From the UHGV virus genome UHGV-0279031: a stretch of 17,049 nucleotides of DNA, one strand, 5' to 3'. Within the stretch, counting starts at the first letter, position 1. The number at the start of each line of letters is the position of its first letter. Source of the DNA: a virus. Shown piece by piece: positions 1 through 16,948 of this stretch. The notes beneath the pieces were generated by a model. That model worked only from the letters and a program-made list of their open reading frames with translations. It was not told the DNA's origin and searched no databases. Made by a program: the position numbers and the translations under genes.

Positions 1-123
1 GTTGAAGATCATCGGGGTAAAACGGTTTATGACGTGGCTTCCGGCGACGCGTTATTTATTTCTGAACTCGGTCCGTTACCGGAAAATGTTACCTGGTTAT
101 CGCCGGAAGGGGAGTTTCATTAG
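1..123 (+). pseudogene. tfa: Tail fibre assembly protein (Tfa) internal fragment, running off the window start and ending at TAG 121-123
   Basis: Frame 1 translates [40 protein letters not shown], which closely matches the middle of lambda Tfa as I recall it. Orientation is opposite to the tail genes. The ORF track reports a different frame (2..205) that shows no such similarity. Confidence 0.55.
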
Positions 124-172
124 TTCCGGCCAGCAGATTATAAATTTTTATGGTCCGTGGTTGTTCACTCAT
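89..172 (-). pseudogene. tfa: Tfa N-terminal fragment (first 19 codons), then unrelated sequence and a stop
   Basis: ATG at 172-170 sits 12 nt downstream of the fibre-tip ORF stop. Translation [19 protein letters not shown] matches the lambda/Rac Tfa N-terminus, then diverges (TPLPAITR*) at about 116, where the opposite-strand tfa fragment ends. Confidence 0.5.
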
Positions 173-183
173 TCTGAATGCCA

Positions 184-1110
184 TTATGCAAGCCTCACAA
201 TATAGTTAAATGCGATGTTTTTGACGGTGTTTTCCGCGTTACCAGCTGCGTTAACGGTGATGGTGTGTCCATGTGAACCAATCGCAACGGAGTGCGTATG
301 CGCACCAATACCTACAGTATGTGCGTGTGCACCTGCGCTTGCAGCAGTACCCGATACAGAGTGCGTATGAGCGCCTGCAGAAGAAGTGTTAACACTGTAT
401 TTAGAATAATCAGGTGATCCACTTCCCGGAGCACCTTTGGTGCCACCTGAAACAAATGTTATCGAATGGGTATGTGCACCGGCTGAAGCAGCCGTACCGC
501 TAACACTATGGGTATCGGACGTTGGCTGGTCATATTCATCCGCGACCGCCGGACCGTGATAACCGCACTCATCACCGCGATAGGTCCAGGTGCAGGTATT
601 AGCAAGCATGATGCGCCCCGGAAAAACAGCGCCGTCCGTTTCCGTCGGCGTGGACAGTACAAAGGAGGCACTGACCGCGCTCAGTTCGCTGCACTGCTCA
701 ATACGCCAGCGGCTGATCACCTCCTGCTCCGGATCGGCGTCACTGTTTCCGTTGACGAAGTTCACCGCATCCAGAAAACGGGCGTAAACCTTACGCCTGA
801 CCACCGTTCCGCCGACCAGACTCTGCAGGTCTTCCGCCATCCCGGTGACCATGCCGTGCAGATTAGAGACTTTCAGCGTTGGCCTTGCACTGGCACCTTT
901 GCCGTTCATCTCAAATCCACTCCCCTGAATGGGATAGGCCTGATACTGCCGACTCTGCCAGGTGACAGACTCTCCTTTCTCGTTCTGCTCATTGCAGAAA
1001 AAGTAGCGATCCCCGCCTACCTCGGTCAGGTCGATTTCCCAGAGCACCACGCTGGCCGACTGCTCCGCACGAATGCATTCATTCAGCGTTTCCTGTTGTA
1101 TGTCCTGCAT
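184..1110 (-). CDS. Chimeric tail protein: gpL-like minor tail protein (about 200 aa) fused in frame to a His-rich tail-fibre tip repeat domain
   Basis: N-terminus [33 protein letters not shown]...[12 protein letters not shown] is near-identical to lambda gpL as recalled. After ...[12 protein letters not shown] the sequence becomes GAHTHS / GAHAHT / GSHGHT repeats ending [11 protein letters not shown], typical of side tail fibre C-termini. The start overlaps the gpM-like stop (ATGA). Confidence 0.75.
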
Positions 1111-1448
1111 CAGATCACCACTTCGTCAAACTGACACGAAAAATCGGTATAGGTGATATGTTCTGTCGCTGACCACGTTCGACACACCACTCTGATTTTT
1201 CTGTTAATACCCGGCGGGCGCCAAAAAAAAGATTTATAGCCTTCATGCCGGGCTAAAAATTTTTCAAATGAATCACGTTCATTCGCCTCAACTTTGAAAT
1301 CACAGGTGAAAACGCGCAGAGAATGATTAAGTCCATTTGGACTTCGTTGCTCATAACCATCACCAAATCTTACAGTTTTTATCGATGGTTTATTTTCTGT
1401 TTTCATTCCATCCTCTGGTAACCAGTGAAATTCTTCCGTATTAGCCAC
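1110..1448 (-). CDS. M: Minor tail protein, lambda gpM-like
   Basis: 112 aa; the motif [16 protein letters not shown]...[16 protein letters not shown] resembles lambda gpM; sits between tape measure and gpL-like gene as in lambda (H-M-L). Confidence 0.75.
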
Positions 1449-4400
1449 TTAACATTCCCCCATCACGTCGCATATTTAACAGATTGCCCTGCACCCGCTG
1501 ATCAACCATCCCCATAAGTGCTTTTATTGCCTGAGGGCCAATCTCTCCATTCTGGCCGTCATTTTGAATAGTGATTTGGTATACAGGGGCATAGGTAATA
1601 TCTCCGCCTCCATTACCACTTTTACTATTAATAGCTCTGACACCAAGAGAACCATCGGAAGTTCGTGTTAATGGCATAATGGCTTCCGGTCCAGCCTCAC
1701 CAAAAACACCAGCCCCTTTTGCAAAAGCAAAAAATTGCGGGGAATCATAAATACCGTTCGAATACGTGCTCAATGACGGAGACTCATAAACACCGCCCTT
1801 TGCATTCGGAATAAATTTACTAATAGCACTCCCGATAGTTCCTAAAATCCCCCCAGAAGAACTGTTACTAATGCTGTCGATAATCCCAGTAATTGAAGCC
1901 TTTAATGCTATTCGACTAAGATCCGAAATCACGGAAGTAGCGAAAGAACGAAAATTTGCCTTGCCTGTCGTGACAAAATCACCCAGCGCATCGGTCATCC
2001 CATCAAACATCTGAGTCGTGGTTGATTTTATCTGCTCACTGATATCCTTAGTGTCATCCAGCCAGTTATTGAATCCCTGGGAGGCACCACTAACCCAGTC
2101 TCCTGCCTGAATATCGAGCTGCTCGTTTTTCTGTCTGACAATTTCTTTTTCCCGTTCCAGAGCATCATTCAGAGCCTGCATTTTCTCTTGAAAAACATGA
2201 TCTGACATTCCACGGGATTTATCTGCATAGTCACGTTCAAGTTGCAGACGCTGATTGTTATATCCATGTTCAATCCGCAGTAATTCCTGCTGGCGTTGCT
2301 GATTTTTATCGCCAACCCCATAACCAGCAATCTGAATATCATACCCCTGCTGACGATTATCAATCGAAGCCTGCAATGAATCACGCCATGCTGTTATTTC
2401 GGCGGATTCCTTGATTAGCCTGTTATTTTTTTCAATCGCAACATTTTTCTCCATCAACGTGGTTATTTCTTCCCGGTGTAAGAGAAGCGATTTCTGATCC
2501 TGGGTTAATTTCGATGATGGTCGTGACTCTAGGTCGGCAATCCGCTGACGCCACTTAACCAGTTCCTGTTCAGAGGAACTTAATTTAACGGTCAACTCAG
2601 CTTGTGAACTTAGTAACGCATTCTGTTGATTCAGATGATCAATCATTCGTTGGGCTGCATCATCAGAATAACCTTTCGCCTTTGGTTGCTTTGGATCTTT
2701 ATAACGCTCATTTATTTGAGCGATAAGATTATTATATTCTTCCTTTGAATACTGATTCTTTAGCTTTTCCAGTTTTGCAAGTTCACTAGCTCTCTGCTGC
2801 TCCCGGGTCTGATATTGTTTTGAAAAGGCATCTGCTCTCTGTCTGAGTTCAATTCCTTCCTGTTGTCGCTTGTTGTAATCGTTTATTGATGAATTTAGTA
2901 CGTCCTGAGCAATTTTTTCTGCTTGAAGTACGCCCAATTGCTGCTTTAATCGTGCCAGCCTTTTATTTTGAGCTCCGCCATCTCCAATGCCACCTAACCC
3001 GAAAACTCCGGGTCGGGTATTTTTTTCTATTTCATCAATTTGACGGAGAACATCTGAGATTTTTTGATCAAGGGAGGCCTCACGGCCAATATCCAGCATG
3101 GAATCCCATGCCCATTTTGCGGAGTCTGCGACAGCTTTCCATGCAGTCTCAAGATAACCAAGATTTTCTTTAATCTGGTTGGTGCGCTGGATCATTGAGG
3201 ATGAGTATTCTTCTGTCGCAATGCGGGCGGCCTCCTGCTGGTTCCCTTCATCCTGTAGCGCCTTAATCTGGTTATAAGTCGCAAGTGTCAGAAAATGGTA
3301 CTGATCATTAAGTTTTGATATGGCACTGACAGGATCCTTTGCAATTTCATTGAAGTCATTAACCAGTTGTTCGGTTGATATTCCTGTTACTTCGCTCGTT
3401 TTTACTATCGCTGTCGTCACTTGCTCCAGCGAACTGCTCGCTACCTTTCCCGAACGCACAAGCTGATTTAATACTGCCGCCGCAGCACCAGTTGTCGAAT
3501 CAGCCGCATTCCCGGCACGTTGAGCTATATCGCCCAATTGCCCGCTGGTTGTCCCCAACTGATTTCCGGTAAGAATAAGAGATTTATTAAATTCGTCCTG
3601 CTCCTGAGAGCCTTTATAGTAAGCCAGTCCTAAGACCCCAACGGCTGCTGCGGCCAGGGTAAAAGGATTAATTAATCCCAGCACATAAGAACCTACACCT
3701 TTGATCGCCGGGCCAATCCCACCGAACATATCTTTTAGCTGGCCGCCCTGCTGCATTAACACCATAAATGGCGACTGACCAGTGGACAACCCAACAACAA
3801 TATCCGTCATTTGTGCAGGCAACATGCGCATAGCAAAAGCCGTTTGTTTTGCCGACATTCCGGTTTTGCTTAATTGTGATTGAGTAACCTCAAGCTCACT
3901 CCGCATAGCACGAAGTTTTCCAGAAAGCTCCTCATACATTTCAGGAGAAAGCATCCCCTTAGCTTTTGCTTCATTGAGCTGTTTCTGTTGTTCTACCAGA
4001 CGATTAAAAGCAGTTCCGACAGGATCAAGTTGAGCAATCAGACGTTGCAAAGCAACAACCTGTTCATCATGCGCTTTTGCTGCTTCTCGCTCTGCCTGAG
4101 CCTCTCCGGTAAGCTCTCGCCGTGTTTCCTGTATTTTTCGGCTATAATTCTCAAACTGAGAACCATTTATTTTCCCGGATGCAAACGCAGCATTAAGTTC
4201 ATCATGCTGTTGTTCAAGATTTCTTAGCGCCGCAGCCAGAGGGTCGATCTTGTCCAGCATTCTTTGAAAGGCCTGAGCCTGCGCTTCCTGCTGGGCGGCA
4301 GCAAGTTTTCCGGCCTTCTCGGCTTCTCTCTGCGCTTGCGCAACCCCGCTCAATTCCTCTGTGGTTTCATTAAGTTTACGGACAAGAAATTCATATTCTT

Positions 4401-4674
4401 CTTTATCAATAAGCCCTTTATCGAAAAATTTCTTTAATTCAGAATAGCGTCGACCGACAGTATCAATTGCGGCACCAACTGGATCAATAGCTGCTTTTAA
4501 TTTTGCGAGCGCGTTCTTCTCATCTTCTGTTGCCTTAGTCACTTTCCCTGCGCTATTTGCAGCAGTTTCCCCAGCCTGCGTCATTTTGACTAATGAGGAG
4601 GTCAGATTGTCAGCATTATTTTTCGCTCCAGTGCTATCAATAATTATTGCGAGACGCGAGGTTTGCTCTGCCAT
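1441..4674 (-). CDS. Tail tape measure protein
   Basis: 1077 aa; long coiled-coil-rich N-terminal part, central hydrophobic Gly-rich segment ([42 protein letters not shown]), position immediately upstream of gpM/gpL. AGGAG Shine-Dalgarno 10 nt upstream of the ATG. Confidence 0.85.
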
Positions 4675-4689
4675 TTATTAAAACTCCTG

Positions 4690-4719
4690 ACAACAAAAAA
4701 CCCACCGCGAAGTGGGTTT
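4690..4719 (-). terminator. Intrinsic-terminator-like hairpin between the GT chaperone and the tape measure gene
   Basis: Minus-strand RNA: AAACCCAC-UUCGCG-GUGGGUUU (8-bp stem, 6-nt loop) followed by UUUGUUGU. It ends about 18 nt before the tape measure start codon. Confidence 0.4.
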
Positions 4720-4839
4720 CAGGCGACATAATAGTAGATATAGCGATTACGAGGCCACGCAATGCTTTTCTCCAGGAGCATCATCGATTTAATTAAAGAC
4801 ACCATCACATCTCTGTAACAGAGTGTACGTAATTAACAA

Positions 4840-5609
4840 CTACACACACTGCTCCTGAAAATACTGGTCATCCAGTGCAAAGATCACTGCTTCAAATTCA
4901 TCGCGCTCAATCAATACCGGATGAGTGGCTAAATATTCATTTATCTCTGTCAGAGATAAAGGCAAAGGCACCCCAGCCATTCCAGCATAACGTCGGGCAC
5001 GGGATATTACCGAATAGGCGTACAACAACTCCTTAAGCACCGGGTCTATTTCTGGTTCCGGTATCGGTGGCAACCTGAGTTTTTCTCGCTTCCATCTTGC
5101 CTTTTCCCCCCTTTCTCCCCCGAACTCCGATAACCACCGCTGGGCAGCTATGGCTTTTTTATCGTATCCTGCTTCTGCTGCTCTTTACCCTGGGCGATGC
5201 TGGCTGCTTCTGCAAGGATCTGCCAGTACAACTCTGGATTCTGCTTAAGCAGCGCGATCCCTCGTTCTGCCGTATATTCCAGTGCAACCTCAACACCATT
5301 AACCAGTTCACCAACCCCTTTCCAGTCTTTCAGCAGATAACGAGCGGCATTATCAATGAGTAAATCATCAACAGAATCCACCTCGGAAACCTTTGAAATA
5401 TCAAACTCCTTCGTTCCGACGTGCAAACTGGCATCCATTTTCTCAATGTGGCGACGGATTAATGCATTACGGGAGCGATACTGATCGTTATCGCTGCTTG
5501 CCACCAACAGTTTTAACCCGTCTACAGGTTTTAAGTCCTTCATTGGCGTAAACCAGCGTTCTCCACCAATGATAATTTTCTGATTAAGAATAAACATCCA
5601 TAACCTCAT
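4840..5609 (-). CDS. Tail assembly chaperone GT-like fusion product made by programmed -1 frameshift
   Basis: The -1 frame from the slip site is open with no stops and joins the 77-aa ORF 4840..5073 (…GEKGGKGKMEAREKLRLPPIPEPEID…). This is the same arrangement as lambda G/GT. Confidence 0.6.
5148..5609 (-). CDS. Tail assembly chaperone, gpG-like
   Basis: 153-aa ORF immediately upstream of the tape measure module; ends in the slippery heptamer A_AAA_AAG followed directly by TAG. Start could instead be the ATG at 5597 (GAGG 6 nt upstream). Confidence 0.65.
   Translation of the reverse strand: MRLWMFILNQKIIIGGERWFTPMKDLKPVDGLKLLVASSDNDQYRSRNALIRRHIEKMDASLHVGTKEFDISKVSEVDSVDDLLIDNAARYLLKDWKGVGELVNGVEVALEYTAERGIALLKQNPELYWQILAEAASIAQGKEQQKQDTIKKP
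5154..5160 (-). other. Programmed -1 ribosomal frameshift slippery heptamer A_AAA_AAG
   Basis: Minus-strand sequence GAT ACG ATA AAA AAG CCA TAG: a canonical X_XXY_YYZ heptamer positioned two codons before the gpG-like stop. Confidence 0.6.
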
Positions 5610-5657
5610 TCAATGCGTCCCCCTGTAGGGCAGTACCACAGGAGGAATAACGGAAAA

Positions 5658-6231
5658 TCAACTAATCGCCTCAGCACTGGCTTTTGCGATCACGGCAGCC
5701 GGGGAATTTTTTTTTCTGGTTATCGTAGGTGCTTCATCTGCTGCGGTAACCTGACGAGCCAGAGCAGCATCAGAAAGATCATCTTTAACACCAAACGGCG
5801 TTGTCCCTGCGGTTCCCACGGCGCGGGAAGCACCGAAATACAACGCACCAAGATCAGCCTCAACCTCGTTTGCAAGGGCGCGAAAAGCCTGCTTGAACTG
5901 ATCAGCCAGAATGGTGTTGTAAGTCCCTGAAGGGCCAAGAGCCAGTTGTTCTTCACCATTCCATTTAACCGGTGCCATTTTGGATTTAGTAATTTTTACA
6001 TCAACAGTGCCAATATTTTGATCACCGGTATTCGGAGCTGACGGCCCCGGTACGATATCTTCGGTTTTCGCCTCAGGCGCAACTGGCGCGGTTACCGTCT
6101 GATCTTTTGCTGCGGCGTCAGCTTTTGCGTTTTTTGCTACCGCAGGGATAAAACCTACCTGCTCACGGGATACAACATCCAGGGCGGTATAAATAGTCGG
6201 GATCAACCCGGTCAGGGTATTTCCAGCCATA
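5658..6231 (-). CDS. Hypothetical phage structural protein (191 aa) in the slot between scaffold and tail chaperone
   Basis: ORF with AAGGA Shine-Dalgarno 10 nt upstream of the ATG at 6231 (MAGNTLTGLIPTIYTALDVVSRE...). The ORF-track start at 6323 is less likely. No family recognised; too short for an HK97-fold capsid protein, compatible in size with a tail tube protein. Confidence 0.3.
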
Positions 6232-6328
6232 ATTAAATATTCCTTAAAAATTTGCGTAATTGTGAATAGATGGAGTAATGAGCTATCCAGCCCTGACACC
6301 AGCTCCCATCCGGAAGCTGACAAATGTG

Positions 6329-7093
6329 TTAATCAACGATTGTGATACCGTCTTTCAATGCGTTTTGCTTACCTGCAACATCCAGTGCATCAAAAGCAGA
6401 GCGTTTCATCGTTTTCTGACCAATATCATGCTGTGTCGGACGGGAGCCGCCGCCATTGTTGCCACTGGCTTTCAGGATGTAGTCTTTCTGAGGGTAATTT
6501 TCGACAAGGAACTCCAGCGCCTCATCAAACTGCGCCAGTTCGCCAGGCTTCGCGCGGGAATAAATTTTGTTGCCGGAAGCGTCATAAGCAACGATCCTCC
6601 CTTCTTCCACTTTGAATGCCTGCCCGAAGCGGGCTTGTAATAAATCTGCCGGGATCGCAATTTTATCGGCAATATATTTTGAACCCGCAAAACTACCGCC
6701 AATCATAGAATCGTAAAGCTGCTTCTCCAGCATCTGAGAGCGTTGCTTTTCTTCATCTAATTGCTGCTGAAAATTTTTCGTAATTTCTGCCTTAACCTGG
6801 TCAACCTGTCCCGCATCGAGCAGCTTTTTCTGGTCGATTTTTGACAGCATTTCCAGTGCCTCGATCGCCTTCTTCGGGTCTTCGATAGCGGCAAACTTAG
6901 CCAGTTTTTCCTCTGCAGCTTCTTTAGCCAGGCGATGATTTTTTGCCTCGCCATTAAGCTCTGTAATTTTTTTTGTCGCCAGCGGTGCATCGAAGCCAAT
7001 TTCTTTACCATCGTCGTGCACATAAACTGGCAGGCCAGCAGTATCAATTTCTGCGTATTGTTTTCCGTTAATCTCGACCGTTTTCAGTTTCAT
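6329..7093 (-). CDS. Probable head scaffolding protein
   Basis: Start MKLKTVEINGKQYAEID; long charged helical, probably coiled-coil, middle section (AKEAAEEKLAKFAAIEDPKKAIEALEMLSKIDQKK...QQQLDEEKQRSQMLEKQL); follows the portal and MuF-like genes. The upstream extension in the ORF track (7094..7165) overlaps a terminator-like hairpin and was trimmed. Confidence 0.45.
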   Translation of the reverse strand: MKLKTVEINGKQYAEIDTAGLPVYVHDDGKEIGFDAPLATKKITELNGEAKNHRLAKEAAEEKLAKFAAIEDPKKAIEALEMLSKIDQKKLLDAGQVDQVKAEITKNFQQQLDEEKQRSQMLEKQLYDSMIGGSFAGSKYIADKIAIPADLLQARFGQAFKVEEGRIVAYDASGNKIYSRAKPGELAQFDEALEFLVENYPQKDYILKASGNNGGGSRPTQHDIGQKTMKRSAFDALDVAGKQNALKDGITIVD

Positions 7094-7150
7094 ATTAGTA
7101 CCTGGTTTAAGTCTTCCGACAGTTACGCTGCTCACCATCCGGATCGCAGC

Positions 7151-7177
7151 AATAAAAAAGGCCACCCGAAGGTAGCC
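7151..7177 (-). terminator. Terminator-like hairpin in the MuF-like/scaffold intergenic region
   Basis: Minus-strand RNA GGCUACC-UUCG-GGUGGCC (7-bp stem with one G-U pair, tetraloop) followed by UUUUUUAUU. Confidence 0.35.
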
Positions 7178-7197
7178 TGTTGTAATAAATGATTTAT

Positions 7198-8313
7198 TTA
7201 AATCCCTGCTTTTCTGAATACCTGTGCATCACGCTCACGGAGCTGCTTCAGCGTCAGCCATTCGCCTTTATCGGTGTAAAATTCATCTGGCGACATACCA
7301 CCATCCCGAATCAGCTTTGCTCGGCTTTCCCCCACAATCTGTTTTTGTCTGGTGTAAGGCTGACGCAAAAACCATTCCCTGTAGGTTGTATCTCCGGCCA
7401 CCACGCCATCCATGCTGGCCCGCTCAGCCGGGGAAATATCGCGAACATCAATACCCAGTTCCTTCGCTGATTTCAGAATGAACGTTTCCGTTGAGCGGCA
7501 GCAGAAATGAATTTTTCCCGGCCCCTGCAAATAAGGCACGCTGTGACCTACAGGTTTATTATTCAGCGTATATTTGAGGCGATCCCTGATTCGACATTGT
7601 GGCGTAGTACGATTATCAAGCGTTGATAACCATTGCTTACCCTTAATCAAATCATTATTCGCGCTGGCAAAACTCTCACGGGCAGTAGCAGCAAGATGTC
7701 CAACCGCTGTTTTTGCAATGCTGGCCGCATTAGCCCGGCTCATCTGCAATGCACCATCCTGAAATCCCTTACTGACATGTCCCCGAATTTTTCTTGCGAT
7801 CTGCTCATTGGTATCCCCCAGCAAAAAACCCTGACGCACTGTATTTGTTATGCGTCTGAGCCGATCCGCCTCAAGATCTGAGGTCCACTCACTGAGCAGT
7901 CGTCCCTGGAATGGTCGCGCCATTGCAGCGGCATAAAGTGCATCAGGAGAGATACCAACCAGAGGGTGAACATCAGCAACAAAATCAGGTAGCATAGAAT
8001 CAAACAGACTTAACTGATAACCAGCCTCATAAATTGCCAGCTCGTTCAGCTCTCCGGAGAGACTGGTAAACATGCTGTTAATAGCAGTGCGGTTAACCTC
8101 TCTGACGCTCGCCAGAAGTGACTCCAGGCGCTTAACGGTAAAACTACCTGGATCGAGGCTGTCCAGTGCTATCAGCAGGCGAGCAGTAAGTTCCGCATCG
8201 CTGTCATTCAGTATTTTCACCATTCTGGCAGCCACGCCAGTGCTATAGCGGGATATCCAGACTGCATGAGCAATTGATTCATCACGCAGCCGTTCATTCA
8301 CGGTTTGCATCAT
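7198..8313 (-). CDS. Head morphogenesis protein, phage Mu F-like / SPP1 gp7-like minor head protein
   Basis: 371 aa directly downstream of the portal gene; contains a ...GKIHFCCRST... segment resembling the conserved His/CRC motif of MuF-domain proteins. Confidence 0.5.
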   Translation of the reverse strand: MMQTVNERLRDESIAHAVWISRYSTGVAARMVKILNDSDAELTARLLIALDSLDPGSFTVKRLESLLASVREVNRTAINSMFTSLSGELNELAIYEAGYQLSLFDSMLPDFVADVHPLVGISPDALYAAAMARPFQGRLLSEWTSDLEADRLRRITNTVRQGFLLGDTNEQIARKIRGHVSKGFQDGALQMSRANAASIAKTAVGHLAATARESFASANNDLIKGKQWLSTLDNRTTPQCRIRDRLKYTLNNKPVGHSVPYLQGPGKIHFCCRSTETFILKSAKELGIDVRDISPAERASMDGVVAGDTTYREWFLRQPYTRQKQIVGESRAKLIRDGGMSPDEFYTDKGEWLTLKQLRERDAQVFRKAGI

Positions 8314-9700
8314 TGATTTCCATCAGCATTACACTCTGATTTTTTAATTCATCGATCACTTCCTCTGGACGGGAATCCTGATCGATAAATTTCAACGCCT
8401 GCAACACCCGAACCGCATCAATCTGACGTATATCACCGCCCTGACGCAATGACTGAACAGCCAGCGCGGAGGATGAGTCAAACACCTGGGCAGATACATC
8501 CAGTTCAGTGCGCACATCCACATTGCCACCGCAACTCTCTCCGATCCATTCCGCCATTATCTGGAGAATATTATCGAGGGCATCTTCGAGGGAGTTCGCC
8601 ATTGTATAAAGCGGCGAGTTTTCCTGCATTCGCTCTTCATTAGTCTGATCAACAGATTTGGTGGATGTATTTTCAGCACGCAGAAGTTTAGCGCCGGCAT
8701 GACGCATCTGATTTTCCAGCTTCTCAAGTGATGTTTCGCCAGATTCTATCGCTGCGCCACTATGTTCAACATATTCGAGGCCATTTTTTGTTCTGTCCTC
8801 AAAAATCGTAGCGGTGGATGCACCAACCGTCAGTTCTTCATTCCTGTCCAGCCCGTAGGCCACCAGCAATGGAACGCGGGCAACATGAAGAATATTGTCC
8901 TGCTCGCTCTGGCTTTGCCAGTGCTTGATATTCAGCAAGCCAAGATTAAGCAATGGCGGTGTACCACGCATAAATCCTGTTTTCTTCGTGTACAGTGTTA
9001 CCAGAGGAATATCATCACGGCTGGTATTCCATGACTCATGAAGCGTCCAGACAGATTCGCCATTAGTGCCTTCGCTACGTCGATAAATTTCAACTCGACG
9101 GGGCATAATATGGCGGATCTGCTCCACCTTCTTCTGCCCGAAATCATCACCATCAATAATGATGACCTCTTTTATACGCAAATCAGTGAGAACAACTTTC
9201 CCTTTTTCAACTTTCGATTTCCATCCAATAACCTGGCGTGGATTCAGCATCGTAACGTACGGACGACCACCGGTCGCGTTTTCATCGGCTTTTGTCCGAA
9301 TCTCTTTCATATCCGTTCGTGGATAGTCCACCAGCGCATGTGCCACACCATACTGAAATGCGAGGCTGAAAAATTGCTGTGCCCACACATCCAGTCGGCT
9401 CCCCTCCATGTCGATATTTTCTGCATATTCCCTGATTTTTGCCGGCGTTTCCTCACTCAATACTGTCGGCTCTGCAAATATGCGCCCAATATTTTGCTTG
9501 ATGCTTTCTTCATACACAGGAAGTAGCGTAGCCACAGACAGGCGTTTTTTATAAGCGTCTTCATCTTCGTTAGGCCATTTTGGGAGATAATTTTCCCCCT
9601 GCCTGCGCATTTCAAGCGTACCGCCCATCAGTGCGTCGTTAATATCCCACGCCTCCAGCATATCGTTATAGTCGAGGTTGGGTGTTGATATATCAGCCAT
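8294..9700 (-). CDS. Portal protein
   Basis: 468 aa, acidic; lies between the terminase large subunit and the MuF-like gene, the canonical portal position. No motif-level confirmation possible by eye. Confidence 0.6.
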   Translation of the reverse strand: MADISTPNLDYNDMLEAWDINDALMGGTLEMRRQGENYLPKWPNEDEDAYKKRLSVATLLPVYEESIKQNIGRIFAEPTVLSEETPAKIREYAENIDMEGSRLDVWAQQFFSLAFQYGVAHALVDYPRTDMKEIRTKADENATGGRPYVTMLNPRQVIGWKSKVEKGKVVLTDLRIKEVIIIDGDDFGQKKVEQIRHIMPRRVEIYRRSEGTNGESVWTLHESWNTSRDDIPLVTLYTKKTGFMRGTPPLLNLGLLNIKHWQSQSEQDNILHVARVPLLVAYGLDRNEELTVGASTATIFEDRTKNGLEYVEHSGAAIESGETSLEKLENQMRHAGAKLLRAENTSTKSVDQTNEERMQENSPLYTMANSLEDALDNILQIMAEWIGESCGGNVDVRTELDVSAQVFDSSSALAVQSLRQGGDIRQIDAVRVLQALKFIDQDSRPEEVIDELKNQSVMLMEINDANRE

Positions 9701-9702
9701 AA

Positions 9703-11013
9703 TTAAATCCGAAGTGATGTGACTCTTCCGGTCGGTTTGACAATAGGGAATTGCTTAACGATGAAATAACCTCCGGCATCATTCGGGTGATCATTGCCAG
9801 ATTTTTTATCAGGCTCCCCCTTCTCATCCCAGACCTGTTGCTCCAGAGATTCGGCATATAACGGGCAACGCTTCACATTAACTTTATAGCGACGCTCACC
9901 ATTGGCATTGCAGAACATTGCATTCATTGAGTTAACGCGATCTTTTACTGGCGGGTTCGAGCTGTTCACCACAACGTTAAAACCAGCCTACTTAAGCTGG
10001 GCTATATCCGTCGTACTTGCGTTACTTGATTTTCTGGAATCCCCGGAAGCATCTGGATAAATATAAATTTCCCTCACTTTCCGGTAATCATTCCCATCAT
10101 ACAGCCAGAAGCGTTCTTTAATGATGCGGATCATATCCGGCGTATCGTAGGCATTGATGATTTCAGTTACCGCACATGGAAGCCCCAAACGCAGCACATG
10201 GACGATTCCCGCCATCTTTCCAACGTTAAAATCCATCCCAATATAAATCGGCTCCCCTGGCTGCTCCACTTCTTCGCAATTATTCAGTTTCCGGTCAAAC
10301 TGATGGTAAACAGTACCACTTGTCAGGTTAGTAAACTGTCCTCGAAGATAGGCTTTAATCAGCTCTGGAGGGTATGATTCAAGAAGCGAAGGAATGTAAT
10401 CTGCTGGCAGGTTCTTTTCATTATCGAAAGTAGATGCCTGCACCAGACCATACAGTGAGGCCAGCTCTGTTTTTTCACGCACGGCTTTAACAAACTGCTC
10501 GTAGACAAATTTGAATCCTTCCGGCGTGGTTGTAACGTCAATACCGTTGCGAAGTCCATCAATCTTATAACGCATACGTGCAATTATCTTGCGCCACGCC
10601 GTTCTGGCTTTTTCCTTCGGCAAAATGTCCAGTTCATCCACCAACGCATTACCAATTTTGAAACCGACGATCGTTTGTGGCTTCTCCATCGATCTGCAGA
10701 TAGTGGTTCCCCGATACTGGCGTCCGTAATAAAAGTGAACCTCTTTATTTCCCTCATTAATTTTTACGTTCAATCCCCAGTCAGCAGCAACTTCTTCCAC
10801 TGTAGGGTAAAAAATATCGCGAATTTGGGGATACGTTGGCGCAAAATATCCCTGATTTATACCTGGATGCTCCCAAATCCCCTTGCATATGCCGCCACAC
10901 CCAACCCATGTTTTGCCCGAGCCAAAACCAGCAATATAGGCTTTAAATTTATGGGGCATTGAAAGAAATCGCGCCTGAGGCACATTAAGCGTCGGAGAGA
11001 TCATCTTCATCAC
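9703..11013 (-). pseudogene. Terminase large subunit interrupted by a single in-frame TAG (plus-strand 9988-9990)
   Basis: N-terminal ORF (341 aa) has Walker A GFGSGKT and a nuclease-domain start (IYIGMDFNVG). The 89-aa ORF 9703..9972 is in the same frame and ends with NDHPNDAGGY, which looks like a terminase nuclease C-terminal motif. Only TAG plus five sense codons separate them (...DIAQLK*AGFNVVVNSS...). Confidence 0.7.
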
Positions 11014-12079
11014 TCCTTACTCTGGCATCAACCACATTAATATTGATCGCCACAGGCTGGGGATATTCATTATCTTCCACCGTTTCGATCTCTTTGCGCA
11101 GCTTCTGGTTTTCCATTCTGCGCCGTTCAATTTCCAGTTCCTGTAGCCGCTTATCTGCACATAAAGCCCCGCCAGCAGAAAACAAACGCAACAATTCACG
11201 CCGGGCGGCAGCCTTATCCTCCAGCAGGATCTCAACGCCGAATTTTCCGAATTTTGCCCCTGCATATAATTGCCGCGCATCCCCATCAAGCAGAGTGGTA
11301 TCAGCCATATAAAGCTGTCCCGTTTCCTCACCGCAGCACTTCGGGCAGTCCGGATTGGGTATGGCGTTATCAACAAAGCCGAGGCCTCCATATTCCGGTT
11401 CGGGTTTGCCATCTCTGGAAGCCTGCGCCGCTGCCTTGTCGAATTCTGCTATATCGCGCCACTGGTAGAGATGATTCTCGCCCCAGCAATAACGGCAGTT
11501 AACACGGCGAAATTGTGCAAGCTGATTGGGGTCGGCCAGGACAATAGCCATCAACTGACTCACTAGTAAATCCAGGTCTGCGGTATAGCGTTTCTGGTAC
11601 TGATTGCGGAAGTAGCTGATAGCGCGAAAAACCCTGGCATTTCTAAGCATACGACTGGCGTTGCTGTTAGCTGTCGCACCTTGCCCCTCATAACCGGCTA
11701 GTCGGTACGCCTCTGTCGGCTTTTTACCCTGAGCAACAAGCATCGCAAACTTAGCCTGCTGGTCAGAAATGCCGAATTCATCGGGACAGAACGAAAATTC
11801 CTCCGCGTCGCCCTCATTCAGGCCCGCATCGAATACTGGCTTTTTTTCCTGAGATTTTTCGTTCCGCTTTTGTGCAGTCTGCGCAGATTTTTTCTGCGCA
11901 CTTTTTTGCGCAGTTTTGCACATTTCTGTCTGCGCATTTTTCGGAGTTTTTTTGATGTAACGACGGGCTGTTGCGTAATTCAGTCCCCTTGCTTCACACC
12001 ATGCCACCGGAGATATACCGGAGCGGGTGTATTCAGCAATATACTCCTGCTGCAACGCCCCCCAGTCCGGTCTGCTCAT
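10985..12079 (-). CDS. Putative terminase small subunit / DNA-packaging DNA-binding protein
   Basis: 364 aa immediately upstream of and overlapping the terminase large subunit; N-terminal HTH-like segment, Cys cluster (CRYCW...CPKCC), basic AQK-rich stretch. Larger than a typical small subunit, so the call is positional. Confidence 0.4.
   Translation of the reverse strand: MSRPDWGALQQEYIAEYTRSGISPVAWCEARGLNYATARRYIKKTPKNAQTEMCKTAQKSAQKKSAQTAQKRNEKSQEKKPVFDAGLNEGDAEEFSFCPDEFGISDQQAKFAMLVAQGKKPTEAYRLAGYEGQGATANSNASRMLRNARVFRAISYFRNQYQKRYTADLDLLVSQLMAIVLADPNQLAQFRRVNCRYCWGENHLYQWRDIAEFDKAAAQASRDGKPEPEYGGLGFVDNAIPNPDCPKCCGEETGQLYMADTTLLDGDARQLYAGAKFGKFGVEILLEDKAAARRELLRLFSAGGALCADKRLQELEIERRRMENQKLRKEIETVEDNEYPQPVAININVVDARVRSDEDDLSDA
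11881..11946. repeat. Array of TGCGCA-like palindromic hexamers, each followed by a T-tract, inside the 5' part of the terS candidate
   Basis: TGTGCA 11881, TGCGCA 11890, TGCGCA 11905, TGCGCA 11917, TGCACA 11927, TGCGCA 11941; spacings of 9-15 bp; T4-7 tracts between them. Confidence 0.6.
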
Positions 12080-12082
12080 CAG

Positions 12083-12334
12083 TTAGTCCTGATTTTTATC
12101 CACCCTGAGTAGTTCGCGCAGAGCAAAGGCATCCCCTTTTCTGGCAAGCTTAAACAATGCCGCTCGTAACTCGGCTTCACCTTTCGCTCTGCCCTTACGG
12201 ATGGCCGCATAAAAATCTGTCATTGCTTCCCGATTTTCTTTCAGTCGGTTCAGATCAACATCCAGAACGTCAGCGATTTGTTGTGCAGTCATCCGGCACG
12301 CTGCCAGAGACTCGACTTTCGAATACGGAATCAT
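12083..12334 (-). CDS. Small helix-turn-helix-like protein (83 aa)
   Basis: GGGGGTGA Shine-Dalgarno 3 nt upstream of ATG 12334; contains MTAQQIADVLDVDLNRL, an HTH-like segment; tightly packed immediately upstream of the terS candidate. Confidence 0.4.
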   Translation of the reverse strand: MIPYSKVESLAACRMTAQQIADVLDVDLNRLKENREAMTDFYAAIRKGRAKGEAELRAALFKLARKGDAFALRELLRVDKNQD

Positions 12335-13220
12335 TTGTCACCCCCATTGATATGCAGGGTGTCTTCTTCCTGTATTTTTCGTGAAGGATTTTTACTGCAG
12401 CGTTGTTCCAGGTGACCTGATGGTGAATGCGTTTATGACTGGCACCCATAAGTGAGATTTTTACGCACGACGGCGCATACATGACGGAGTAAAAACTTTT
12501 AACGTAGGTTCCGGAATCCAGATACAGCTCGGTCATTCCGCCGCTGTTTTTCTGCGTCTGTTTCTGCCCTAACTGGACAGCACCGATCGTCATAAACAAT
12601 TCACCACAGCGACCGAGATTCGTGTACGTATTCACATCCTCGTTAATGCGCCCCATGAATGAGAACGGTCGATCAACCGAACAGATAAAGCTGTTCATTG
12701 CCTTGCGTTTCACCCACGAAGCATGGCCGCCATTGTCACCAAGAAAATCCCCGCCCTGCGACATAGCGATGGAAAGAGCAGGTATTGATTCGTAGTACGC
12801 AAGCATTTCAGAAAGGATCTCATCCAGTTTCCTTATCGGGAAATAGGCCTGGTCATAGTTGCGATCCACCCGAAACTGGAACTCGTGATAATCATCATCG
12901 AGCTGAATGAAGTATTTACACCCGACCAGTTTTGCCTGGTCGAAACAGGCATTACGGGCGTAAAAAATTGAGCGGCGGTCACTAAAATTATCGGCTTCGT
13001 CAAAACGACTAGCAATATCGGCTTTGGAAAATACCAGCACCTGTTCACCAAATTCAGCCATGTACTGATGCCGTGTCTTATCTTCATCATCAACAACGAT
13101 AAAAATTTTCCCGGTATAGCCAGCACGACGCAACGTCCGGTAAGTCAGAACTTTGTCCGGTCGCCCGTGAGTCAGAATAAAGGCGCAAAAATCATCACGC
13201 ATATTCCTCCTCCCCGCCAT
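12270..13220 (-). CDS. Uncharacterised enzyme-like protein with two acidic clusters (VVDDED, QLDDDY)
   Basis: 316-aa ORF; start overlaps the ParB-like gene stop (alternative ATG at 13202 preceded by GGAGGAGG). Strand-then-acidic pattern AFILTHGR...IFIVVDDED...YFIQLDDDY resembles DxD-type nucleotide-dependent transferases, but this is motif-level inference only. Confidence 0.3.
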   Translation of the reverse strand: MAGRRNMRDDFCAFILTHGRPDKVLTYRTLRRAGYTGKIFIVVDDEDKTRHQYMAEFGEQVLVFSKADIASRFDEADNFSDRRSIFYARNACFDQAKLVGCKYFIQLDDDYHEFQFRVDRNYDQAYFPIRKLDEILSEMLAYYESIPALSIAMSQGGDFLGDNGGHASWVKRKAMNSFICSVDRPFSFMGRINEDVNTYTNLGRCGELFMTIGAVQLGQKQTQKNSGGMTELYLDSGTYVKSFYSVMYAPSCVKISLMGASHKRIHHQVTWNNAAVKILHEKYRKKTPCISMGVTNDSVFESRVSGSVPDDCTTNR

Positions 13221-13983
13221 GCATGATCTCCACCATGCGCTGCGTCATTCGGACAAATCCATTTTCAATAGCCTGCTGATAATCAATGATCACCAGCGCC
13301 GACTCCTCGAAAAGGCACTGAATTTCAGCGGGGGCATGAGCGTAATAGTCCGCAATTCTGCTGAAATTAAACACCGTGTGACGTTCTGCTGCACACAGGA
13401 GGAATTTCTCAATATCAGGATCAAGGGACGCCGAACGTATCCGGCTGATCAGCTCCTGAGTTTTCGTATCGTCGTACAGTTCACTGATATCCGGTTTACC
13501 GCCTGACGGCTCATAAACAGGCGTATCAATTTTCGTCGTATACGGCTCCTCCTCATTTCCTGTACCGGGCAAAACATCCGTCAACAGTTCATCAATTTCT
13601 GCCGGGATGAAGCCTGTCAGGGAGACATCAAAATCAGCATTGATTAGGTCCGACAGCTCCATCCGCAACAGATCTTCATCCCAGCCAGCATTCATCGGCA
13701 GGCGATTATCTGCCAGGCGGTACGCCTTTTTCTGCTCATCCGTCAGGCCAGACAGAACAATGACCGGAACAGAATCCATTTTGAGCATTTCAGCCGCCAT
13801 AACACGACCGTGACCCGCAATAATTTCGCCCTTTTCGTCAATCAGCACCGGATTAGTCCAGCCGAATTGCTTAATACTTTCTACCAGTTGTGCCACCTGC
13901 TCAGTACTGTGCGTCCTGGCGTTGTGCGCATACGGTGACAATTCTTGTAATGGGCGATAGACTATCTTTAATTTCTCGCTCAT
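13195..13983 (-). CDS. ParB/sulfiredoxin-like N-terminal domain protein
   Basis: 262 aa; N-terminal region with ...PVLIDEKGEIIAGHGRVMAAEML..., a DGxHR-like ParB-fold motif; this is the position held by ynaK in Rac-like prophages, directly after trkG. Confidence 0.55.
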   Translation of the reverse strand: MSEKLKIVYRPLQELSPYAHNARTHSTEQVAQLVESIKQFGWTNPVLIDEKGEIIAGHGRVMAAEMLKMDSVPVIVLSGLTDEQKKAYRLADNRLPMNAGWDEDLLRMELSDLINADFDVSLTGFIPAEIDELLTDVLPGTGNEEEPYTTKIDTPVYEPSGGKPDISELYDDTKTQELISRIRSASLDPDIEKFLLCAAERHTVFNFSRIADYYAHAPAEIQCLFEESALVIIDYQQAIENGFVRMTQRMVEIMHGGEEEYA

Positions 13984-16180: not shown

Positions 16181-16674
16181 TGCTGACCCCACAAACAGAT
16201 TTCACGCTCAATCTCACGACGAGTCATGAGACCTTTCCATTGCTTACCGCCAGCATATGTCCAGCGACGTAGCTGATCACATGCGCCTTTGATATCGCCC
16301 TGGTTTATTTTGCGAAGAAGCGTCGATGTTCTGAAATTGCCAGCACCCACGTTGTAAACGAATGAGTAAAGAGCGCCGCGCGTTGTTTCCGGTATATCGA
16401 CTTTGATGTACGGGTTAATTTGTCTGGCGACAGTGGCAAGGTCTTTATTCAAGAGTGTTTTGCATTCTGCTTTGGTATACGTTTTACCGAGCATGATGTC
16501 TTTTCCTGTATGCCCGTGACATACAGTCCATACACCAACAATATCTTTGTATGGTATGTAGCTGACACCTTCCAGACCATCGTTACCACTTGGGCCAGTG
16601 ATTAACACTGATGCTATAGCAATTGCTCCGCCACCAATAGCAGCAGCAACGGCTTTTCGTAATGATGGAGGCAT
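16177..16674 (-). CDS. R: SAR endolysin, P21 R-type (T4-lysozyme-like glycoside hydrolase)
   Basis: [57 protein letters not shown]...: Gly/Ala-rich signal-anchor-release N-terminus plus E/D/T catalytic residues; near-identical to phage 21 endolysin as recalled. Confidence 0.9.
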
Positions 16675-16745: not shown

Positions 16746-16748
16746 GCC

Positions 16749-16842
16749 GTGGGTGCTGGCAATTTTAGAACATCGACGCTTCTTCGCAAAATAAACCAGG
16801 GCGATATCAAAGGCGCATGTGATCAGCTGCGTCGCTGGACAT
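16749..16842. repeat. 94-bp inverted duplicate of an internal endolysin segment (partner 16257..16350), 2 mismatches
   Basis: The reverse complement of 16749..16842 equals 16257..16350 except at two positions (compared base by base). Confidence 0.85.
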
Positions 16843-16948
16843 ACCTTCCAGACCATCGTTACCACTTGGGCCAGTGATTAACACTGATGCTATAGCAATT
16901 GCTCCGCCACCAATAGCAGCAGCAACGGCTTTTCGTAATGATGGAGGC
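16843..16948. repeat. 106-bp perfect direct duplicate of the endolysin 5' end / SAR-domain coding region (partner 16567..16672)
   Basis: Identical string accttccagaccatcgtt...cgtaatgatggaggc at both sites. The second copy has no ATG; a TAA lies 5 codons upstream in frame. Confidence 0.85.

What the first reader, a model, noticed from the sequence alone, without database searches (positions are those of the whole stretch)
184..1110. gpL-like minor tail protein fused in frame to a His-rich tail-fibre tip domain, with no K/I/J tail-tip genes
The ORF is lambda-gpL-like up to ...[12 protein letters not shown], then switches to GxHxH repeats (GAHTHS, GAHAHT, GSHGHT) typical of receptor-binding fibre tips, where paired histidines coordinate metal ions in T4 gp37-type needles. 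The Cys cluster that I recall at the lambda gpL C-terminus is absent. The downstream gene is tfa rather than K/I/J. This is either a deletion scar joining L to the 3' end of stf, or an unusual tail-tip/fibre hybrid.
Basis: partly seen in the sequence, partly recalled or inferred. Interest (0 to 1): 0.55.

Follow-up and report, generated by a model that had tools for sequence, protein, structure and literature searches.

The report
Deletion scar fusing tail genes L and stf
The odd "tail-tip plus fibre-tip" gene is real, but it is the in-frame scar of an 8.3-kb deletion inside a dead Rac-type prophage of one E. coli clone, so it is ordinary prophage decay and not a new kind of tail protein.

Summary
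ORF 184..1110, on the minus strand, encodes 308 aa. Residues 1-199 are lambda gpL. Residues 200-308 are the last 109 residues of a Rac/lambda-type side tail fibre (Stf), whose end is homologous to the T4 gp37 iron-binding needle.

Intact relatives at the same chromosomal site carry M-L-K-I-J-lom-stf-tfa-sitDCBA-uspF. Against them, the window lacks 8,273 bp. This removes L codons 200-232, the genes K, I, J and lom, and stf codons 1-898. The join lies at a 3-bp microhomology (ATA, window 513-515).

The fusion loses two of the four Fe-S ligands of gpL (C205, C212). It also loses the fibre shaft, most of the collar and 2 of 7 HxH sites.

The same prophage has two further lesions: an in-frame capsid::tail-tube deletion of 3,327 bp and an amber codon in the large terminase.

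The identical protein lies on at least 24 contigs from independent assemblies, some in the 0.2-1 Mb size class, and these run on into chromosomal genes. It is therefore not a mis-join. The six carriers whose contigs reach the chromosomal flank are almost clonal. No complete E. coli genome (5,426) and no phage record (50,697) has the junction.

Verdict: a deletion scar. Interest is low.

The parts
184..1110 (-). L::Stf fusion ORF, 308 aa (stop codon at 186-184)
   Evidence: ORF list. Pfam Phage_tail_L plus Phage_fiber repeat. The exact protein lies on at least 24 other contigs.
514..1110 (-). L-derived part: gpL codons 1-199. The HDI domain is complete, and the Fe-S domain is cut after C173 and C182.
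   Evidence: Window 513-1500 is 100% identical to the M-L region of complete genomes H2-H5. It aligns to lambda gpL 8iyk_L residues 1-201. Domain limits and Fe-S ligands are from PMC10721106.
513..515 (.). Deletion junction: a 3-bp microhomology (ATA on the coding strand) shared by both parents
   Evidence: Three-way alignment of the window with the L parent (L011) and the stf parent (L012). The megablast limits are 513 and 515.
184..513 (-). Stf-derived part: the last 109 codons of a 1007-aa side tail fibre (residues 899-1007) plus the stop codon. It has 5 intact HxH sites, the distal tip and the last collar strand.
   Evidence: Window 116-515 is 99.5% identical to stf/tfa of H31 and others and 97.8% to L013 stf. 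Homology to T4 gp37 2xgf has E 1.9e-25.
116..184 (-). First 23 codons of tfa (tail fibre assembly chaperone). Its ATG overlaps the stf stop codon (TAATG).
   Evidence: Alignment to L002, where tfa occupies 10927..11511 and encodes 194 aa.
1..119 (+). Inverted copy of an internal tfa segment (matches L002 11128-11246), joined through a 4-bp overlap (TTCA). It is probably a fold-back artefact at the contig end and not part of the fusion event.
   Evidence: Sister contigs lack this inversion.
1110..1448 (-). gpM-like distal tail protein gene, intact, immediately upstream of the fusion
   Evidence: Pfam Phage_min_tail, E 1.2e-31.
1441..4674 (-). Tape measure protein gene, intact (1077 aa)
   Evidence: Pfam TMP_2, TMP_4 and Tape_meas_lam_C.
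5658..6230 (-). Second in-frame deletion scar in the same prophage: capsid residues 1-161 fused to the last 29 residues of the tail tube protein. 3,327 bp are lost, with a 2-bp overlap at 5748-5749.
   Evidence: Alignment to L013 and translation.
9988..9990 (-). Amber codon (CAG to TAG, Q339) that splits the large terminase gene
   Evidence: Alignment to the intact 433-aa TerL of L011. The split is also called in all eight sister contigs that reach this region.

Best explanation
The ORF is the in-frame scar of a single 8,273-bp deletion inside a defective Rac-type lambdoid prophage. The prophage sits between trkG and sitDCBA/uspF/ompN.

An illegitimate, microhomology-mediated recombination event joined two identical ATA triplets. 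One lies in codons 199-200 of gene L, the other in codons 898-899 of the side tail fibre gene stf. The event removed the last 33 codons of L, all of K, I, J and lom, and the first 898 codons of stf. Because the two reading frames happened to match (a one-in-three chance), gene callers see one 308-aa protein. The original stf-tfa overlap downstream is preserved.

The product most likely has no role in any tail. It lacks half of the Fe-S ligands of gpL. It lacks the shaft of the fibre, most of its collar and two of its seven iron sites. The prophage cannot build particles in any case, because it has no K/I/J, no complete capsid or tail tube gene, and an amber codon in its terminase.

Shown here: the parentage of both halves, the junction, the deleted interval, the other lesions, and inheritance in one near-clonal lineage. 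Inferred: the recombination mechanism and the lack of function.
For: Junction and parents
- The L half (window 513-1500) is 100% identical to M-L of complete genomes. The fibre half (116-515) is 99.5% identical to stf-tfa of others. The two ranges overlap by 3 bp. The base-level alignment shows the shared ATA.
- Intact relatives at the same locus (L013, strain E275a; L011, strain 181.1) have the order M, L (232 aa), K, I, J, lom, stf (1007 aa in L013). In L013 an intact tfaR (194 aa) then precedes sitDCBA and uspF; in L011 the fibre end differs and tfa is only a fragment. The window aligns collinearly to L013 with the interval 11731-20000 missing.

What the protein lacks
- It lacks C205, C208 and C212. 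C205 and C212 are Fe-S ligands of lambda gpL (PMC10721106).
- Only 5 of the 7 HxH motifs survive, and the break falls inside the second motif.

Other lesions in the same element
- Capsid::tube in-frame deletion.
- TerL Q339 amber.

Reality and spread of the junction
- The exact protein was read on 24 contigs (the index lists it in 41 blocks of the collection) from NCBI isolates and ENA assemblies built with different assemblers, some in the 0.2-1 Mb class. On the six whose contigs extend far enough, it is followed by tfa, sitDCBA, uspF, ompN and nifJ.
- The carriers are almost clonal: 0-2 differences in 9.4 kb of chromosomal flank.

This is a common kind of event
- Full-length L homologues are mostly 232 aa. 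The database holds many one-off L fusions to other phage genes, for example P0052, which is L(1-197)::Tfa.
Against: - The fusion is in frame, keeps the distal fibre tip with five HxH sites, and keeps its cognate chaperone gene directly downstream. Expression of a folded fragment therefore cannot be excluded.
- The second deletion in the same prophage is also in frame. The joint chance of two in-frame deletions is about 1 in 9, which is mildly unusual.
- One metagenome contig (L014) carries the same junction with 5 amino-acid differences and a Qin-type flank. This could mean the allele is older or more mobile than a single clone suggests. However, that variant was seen on only one 5.3-kb contig, which may be chimeric.
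- No expression data could be consulted.
Confidence: 0.92

Rival explanations
1. Assembly artefact: a contig mis-joined between L and the 3' end of stf, two repeats that are present in several prophages of one genome.
For: Both ends of the window carry inverted or duplicated pieces that look like assembly artefacts. L and stf/tfa are multi-copy in E. coli, with a median of 4-5 matching places per genome.
Against: The identical junction occurs on at least 24 contigs from independent projects and assemblers, some in the 0.2-1 Mb size class, and these continue into single-copy chromosomal genes. The overlap at the join is only 3 bp, far too short for a k-mer graph mis-join. One further metagenome contig also holds the junction.
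Confidence: 0.01
2. A functional hybrid tail-tip protein: a gpL variant that displays a receptor-binding needle directly on the tail hub and so replaces K/I/J and the side fibres.
For: The fusion is in frame. gpL and the fibre tip are both trimers in their native settings (PMC10721106; PMC6957217). The fibre chaperone gene tfa is retained directly downstream.
Against: - Every diverged full-length L homologue lacks the extension.
- No phage record has the junction, and no complete E. coli genome has it.
- The break cuts through the Fe-S domain and through an HxH motif.
- The element also lacks intact capsid, tail tube and terminase genes.
- The carriers are one clone.
Confidence: 0.03
3. Product of site-specific recombination by a Pin/Gin-type invertase acting on the fibre cassette (deletion or inversion at a gix-like site).
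For: Rac- and Qin-type prophages carry pinR or pinQ next to tfa. The window starts with an inverted tfa piece.
Against: The window has no gix-like core (AAACCNNGGTTT, one mismatch allowed) anywhere. The junction shares only ATA. In the six carriers whose contigs reach past tfa, sitDCBA occupies the place of pin. The inverted tfa piece is absent from the sister contigs.
Confidence: 0.01
4. An exapted remnant kept by the host. It could be a truncated L that poisons tail-tip assembly of incoming lambdoid phages, or a stored fibre-tip plus chaperone cassette that infecting phages can pick up by recombination.
For: The ORF is intact in all carriers. The HDI domain that contacts gpM and gpJ is complete. 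The tip and tfa are intact.
Against: The carriers differ by only a few bases, so an intact ORF says nothing about selection. The neighbouring genes are decaying. No defence-related context was seen in the window. No data on expression are available.
Confidence: 0.03

Closest known systems
Bacteriophage lambda gpL (tail tip hub protein; Pfam PF05100; PDB 8IYK chain L)
   Same: Residues 1-199 are collinear with gpL, with E 2.3e-125 against 8iyk_L. They include the whole HDI beta-sandwich (1-166). The gene follows a gpM homologue and a tape measure gene, as in lambda.
   Different: The protein ends at residue 199 of 232. It loses C205 and C212, two of the four Fe-S ligands, and the rest of the iron-binding domain. 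It is not followed by K, I and J.
Rac/lambda-type side tail fibre StfR with chaperone TfaR; tip homologous to the T4 gp37 needle (PDB 2XGF)
   Same: The last 109 residues are 98-99.5% identical at the DNA level to stf genes of Rac/Qin-type prophages. The last 77 residues align to the gp37 needle (E 1.9e-25). HxH motifs of the kind that bind iron in gp37 are present. The overlap with tfa is preserved.
   Different: Only 109 of 1007 residues remain. The attachment domain, the shaft, the N-terminal part of the collar, the first HxH site and half of the second are missing.
Cryptic prophage decay in E. coli (K-12 Rac with its tmpR, lomR and stfR remnants; other truncated L fusions in public assemblies)
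   Same: The chromosomal site and cargo (trkG, ynaK) match Rac. There are several internal deletions and a nonsense mutation. Independent L fusions such as L::Tfa (P0052) show that the same process recurs.
   Different: This particular junction, and the capsid::tube junction, are absent from all 5,426 complete E. coli genomes searched. They mark one lineage.

Membership tests
Lambda gpL / Phage_tail_L | N-terminal HDI beta-sandwich domain (lambda residues 1-166) | tested here: met
   Pfam PF05100, E 1.8e-83, aa 29-201. Alignment to 8iyk_L residues 1-201. Domain limits are from PMC10721106.
Lambda gpL / Phage_tail_L | C-terminal iron-binding domain with four Cys ligands (C173, C182, C205, C212) | tested here: not met
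   The fusion has C173 and C182 only. C205, C208 and C212 lie in the deleted part. Ligand identities are from PMC10721106.
Lambda gpL / Phage_tail_L | Gene order M-L-K-I-J in a tail module | tested here: not met
   M is present upstream. K, I and J are absent, with no alignment to L013 11731-20000.
Stf / T4 gp37-type fibre tip | C-terminal needle homologous to gp37 D11, with HxH iron sites | tested here: inconclusive
   Homology is clear (2xgf, E 1.9e-25). However, only 5 of the 7 HxH motifs of the parental Stf remain, and the break lies inside the second. Metal binding cannot be tested with these tools.
Stf / T4 gp37-type fibre tip | Collar domain and fibre shaft with an N-terminal attachment domain | tested here: not met
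   The parental Stf has 1007 residues, and residues 1-898 are deleted. The collar-like segment seen in the parent is absent from the fusion.
Stf / T4 gp37-type fibre tip | Cognate chaperone gene tfa immediately downstream | tested here: met
   Six of the nine sister contigs shown carry an intact 194-aa tfa that overlaps the stop codon; the other three end inside tfa. In the window itself only 23 codons are present before the inverted end piece.
Deletion scar in a defective prophage | Both flanks collinear with an intact relative at the same locus, with the interval missing and short microhomology at the join | tested here: met
   Compared with L013, 8,273 bp are missing and a 3-bp ATA is shared.
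Deletion scar in a defective prophage | Junction reproducible in independent assemblies and continuous with chromosomal genes | tested here: met
   At least 24 contigs, with flanks sitDCBA-uspF-ompN-nifJ on the six that extend far enough. One JGI metagenome contig also has it.
Deletion scar in a defective prophage | Other inactivating lesions in the same element | tested here: met
   Capsid::tube deletion. TerL amber codon.
Pin/Gin invertible fibre cassette | gix/pix-type crossover site at the junction and an adjacent invertase gene | tested here: not met
   No AAACCNNGGTTT core in the window. The consensus used was recalled from memory. In the six carriers whose contigs reach past tfa, sitDCBA lies where pin would be.

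The most novel reading that the evidence does not exclude
The chimera is made from the late operon together with Tfa. It folds as a trimer: a gpL HDI domain carrying a short iron-binding needle tip. It then enters the tail tips of co-resident or infecting lambdoid phages. There it would either block assembly, acting as a prophage-encoded decoy that protects the host, or give those phages a new receptor-binding tip.
Probability: 0.03. Interest if true: 0.55.

Novelty: already known. Interest (0 to 1): 0.08.

Why it matters
It matters little for biology. It is a clean, well-mapped example of how cryptic prophages erode through short-homology deletions, and of how such scars become plausible-looking chimeric proteins.

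Its practical value is for annotation. NCBI names this protein "phage minor tail protein L". That name hides the facts that it is a truncated L joined to a fibre tip and that the prophage is defective.

The two lineage-specific junctions, L::stf and capsid::tube, could serve as markers for this E. coli clone.

Tried and rejected
- Mis-join. Rejected, because the junction recurs on long independent contigs.
- Normal long form of gpL. Rejected, because full-length homologues are mostly 232 aa and the other lengths are unrelated one-off fusions or duplications.
- Pin-mediated event. Rejected, because there is no gix-like core and the overlap is only 3 bp.
- Same junction in complete E. coli genomes. 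None of 5,426.
- Same junction in phage records. None of 50,697.
- Same junction in one genome per species. None.
- Same junction in JGI metagenomes. One 5.3-kb contig, L014, a variant with a Qin-type flank. It was seen only once, so I did not build on it.
- Test for selection on the fusion. Not possible, because the carriers differ by only 0-8 bases in 11.5 kb.
- Structure prediction. Not run. The tool folds single chains only, and the fibre tip is an interwoven trimer, so a monomer model would not discriminate between the readings.
- Literature search for sitABCD in Rac-type prophages. It gave nothing directly usable.

Full report
**What is there**

The ORF at 184..1110 lies on the minus strand and encodes 308 aa. 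Pfam places Phage_tail_L on residues 29-201 (E 1.8e-83) and a borderline tail-fibre repeat on residues 243-256.

Against solved structures, residues 1-201 align position for position with lambda gpL (8iyk_L, E 2.3e-125). Residues 232-308 align with the last 77 residues of the T4 gp37 receptor-binding tip (2xgf_A, E 1.9e-25).

The genes upstream on the same strand are a gpM homologue (1110..1448) and a 1077-aa tape measure protein (1441..4674).

**The junction**

Megablast against 5,426 complete E. coli genomes splits the region into two parents. Window 513-1500 is 100% identical to the M-L region of several genomes. Window 116-515 is 99.5% identical to the stf-tfa end of others. No genome has both in one piece.

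A three-way base alignment gives the following:

- L parent: ...ACGTCCGATATCACG...
- stf parent: ...GGGGCGCATACCCATAGT...
- window: ...ACGTCCGATACCCATAGT...

The only shared bases at the crossover are ATA (window 513-515).

In protein terms, L residues 1-199 (...PTSD) are followed by Stf residues 899-1007 (THSVSG...RLA). D199 of L takes the place of the first histidine of an H-T-H motif.

**The undeleted state**

Two complete genomes carry close relatives of this prophage at the same chromosomal site. Strain E275a (L013) has the order capsid ... tail tube, ydaY, tape measure, M, L (232 aa), K (C40 peptidase), I, J, lom, stf (1007 aa), tfaR (194 aa), sitDCBA, uspF, ompN, nifJ. Strain 181.1 (L011) has the same order from trkG through lom and again from sitDCBA to nifJ, but its fibre end differs and its tfa is only a fragment.

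The window aligns collinearly to L013 with two gaps.

- The first gap is 8,273 bp and corresponds to the junction above. It removes L codons 200-232, the genes K, I, J and lom, and stf codons 1-898.
- The second gap is 3,327 bp, with a 2-bp overlap at window 5748-5749. It fuses capsid residues 1-161 in frame to the last 29 residues of the tail tube protein, giving ORF 5658..6230.

In addition, the large terminase carries CAG to TAG at codon 339, at window 9988-9990.

The element therefore lacks an intact capsid gene, head-tail connector genes, a tail tube gene, K, I, J, a complete fibre and a complete terminase. It is a defective Rac-type prophage. The presence of trkG, a ynaK-like gene, Rz and a lysozyme gene on the right side of the window fits this.

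**Is the junction real?**

The exact 308-aa protein is indexed in 41 blocks of the public assembly collection. It was read on 24 contigs from NCBI isolates and from ENA assemblies made with different assemblers, some in the 0.2-1 Mb size class; the cluster look-up gives 699,427 bp as its longest contig.

In the nine loci shown, the fusion follows M. In the six whose contigs extend far enough, it is followed by an intact 194-aa tfa, then sitDCBA, uspF, ompN and nifJ. The window is 99.96-100% identical to these loci over 116-11110. A 3-bp overlap cannot cause a graph mis-join. The junction is real and inherited.

The carriers are close to clonal. They show 0-2 differences in 9.4 kb of chromosomal flank and 0-8 in 11.5 kb of prophage.

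Results of the junction searches:

- Complete E. coli genomes: absent from all 5,426.
- Phage records: absent from all 50,697; matches stop at window 513-515.
- One genome per species: absent.
- JGI metagenomes: one 5.3-kb contig, L014.

L014 encodes a variant with five clustered amino-acid changes and a Qin-type flank (tfaQ, pinQ, ydfK, ydfJ). That variant exists on that contig only. I treat it as possibly chimeric, or as the result of gene conversion between prophages.

**What the product lacks**

In lambda, gpL has an HDI domain (residues 1-166) and an iron-binding domain (residues 154-232). The [4Fe-4S] cluster of that domain is held by C173, C182, C205 and C212 (PMC10721106). The fusion keeps C173 and C182 and loses C205, C208 and C212.

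The parental Stf has seven HxH motifs. This is the same number as the seven iron sites of the gp37 needle (PMC6957217; PMC11705849). The fusion keeps five intact motifs, half of the second, and none of the first.

It also lacks the shaft and the N-terminal part of the collar. It keeps the distal tip and the last collar strand.

**How it arose and what it does**

The best account is one illegitimate recombination event at a 3-bp microhomology within an already decaying, or subsequently decaying, prophage. It happened once and was passed on vertically.

The in-frame outcome has a one-in-three chance. With the second in-frame scar the joint chance is about one in nine, which is not remarkable.

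The database shows that the process recurs. Full-length L homologues are mostly 232 aa, alongside many single-instance L fusions to portal, capsid, Lom, K or Tfa sequences. One example is P0052, which is L(1-197)::Tfa on a 1.09-Mb contig.

I infer that the protein has no function in tail assembly. This is an inference from anatomy, not a measurement.

**Rivals**

- Mis-assembly is excluded by recurrence on independent long contigs.
- A natural long gpL family is excluded by the homologue survey.
- A Pin/Gin event is contradicted by the junction sequence, by the absence of a gix-like core and by the absence of pin next to tfa in the six carriers whose contigs reach that far.
- A retained, exapted fragment (an assembly poison, or a reservoir of fibre tip plus chaperone) cannot be excluded. 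It has no positive support, and the carriers are too similar to test for selection.

**Verdict**

This is an ordinary product of prophage decay. It is already present in public databases under the name "phage minor tail protein L". Interest is low.

Noticed in passing
window 5658..6230 (-), junction at 5748-5749: A second in-frame deletion scar in the same prophage. P22-type major capsid residues 1-161 are fused to the last 29 residues of the tail tube protein. 3,327 bp are lost relative to L013, with a 2-bp overlap. This junction is also absent from all 5,426 complete E. coli genomes.
   Followed up: yes
window 9703..11013 (-), stop codon at 9988-9990: The large terminase gene is split by a CAG to TAG change at codon 339. 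The same split is called in all eight sister contigs that reach this region.
   Followed up: yes
window 1..119 (+): The window begins with an inverted copy of an internal piece of tfa (matches L002 11128-11246). It is joined to tfa codon 23 through a 4-bp overlap (TTCA). Sister contigs have an intact tfa, so this looks like a fold-back artefact at a contig end.
   Followed up: partly
window 16748..16948: The other end of the window is also scrambled. 16748-16843 is an inverted copy of lysozyme gene bases 16256-16351 (98%). 16843-16948 is a direct copy of 16567-16672 (100%). Complete genomes match this region only in two pieces.
   Followed up: partly
window 12270..13220 (-) and 13195..13983 (-): A 316-aa protein matches Pfam TAGT, the TET-associated glycosyltransferase family (E 4.1e-34). 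It sits next to a ParB_N-domain protein (ynaK-like), between trkG and the small terminase gene. No TET/JBP gene was seen in the window. This may be a DNA-modification module of Rac-type phages.
   Followed up: no
L014 (JGI metagenome contig OGNF01007211.1), 3843..4769: This contig has the same L::stf junction, but the protein differs at 5 clustered residues. The flank is Qin-type (tfaQ, pinQ, ydfK, ydfJ) instead of sitDCBA. The variant protein occurs on this one contig only. It may be a chimeric assembly or the result of gene conversion between prophages.
   Followed up: partly
L002-L007, L011 and L013, downstream of tfa: In this lineage and in its intact relatives, the sitABCD iron/manganese transporter operon lies directly after tfa. 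K-12-type Rac has pinR, ydfK and ynaM at that position.
   Followed up: no
protein P0052 (352 aa, from a 1.09-Mb contig): An independent fusion of L residues 1-197 to a Tfa chaperone. It is one of many single-instance L chimeras in the protein collection.
   Followed up: partly
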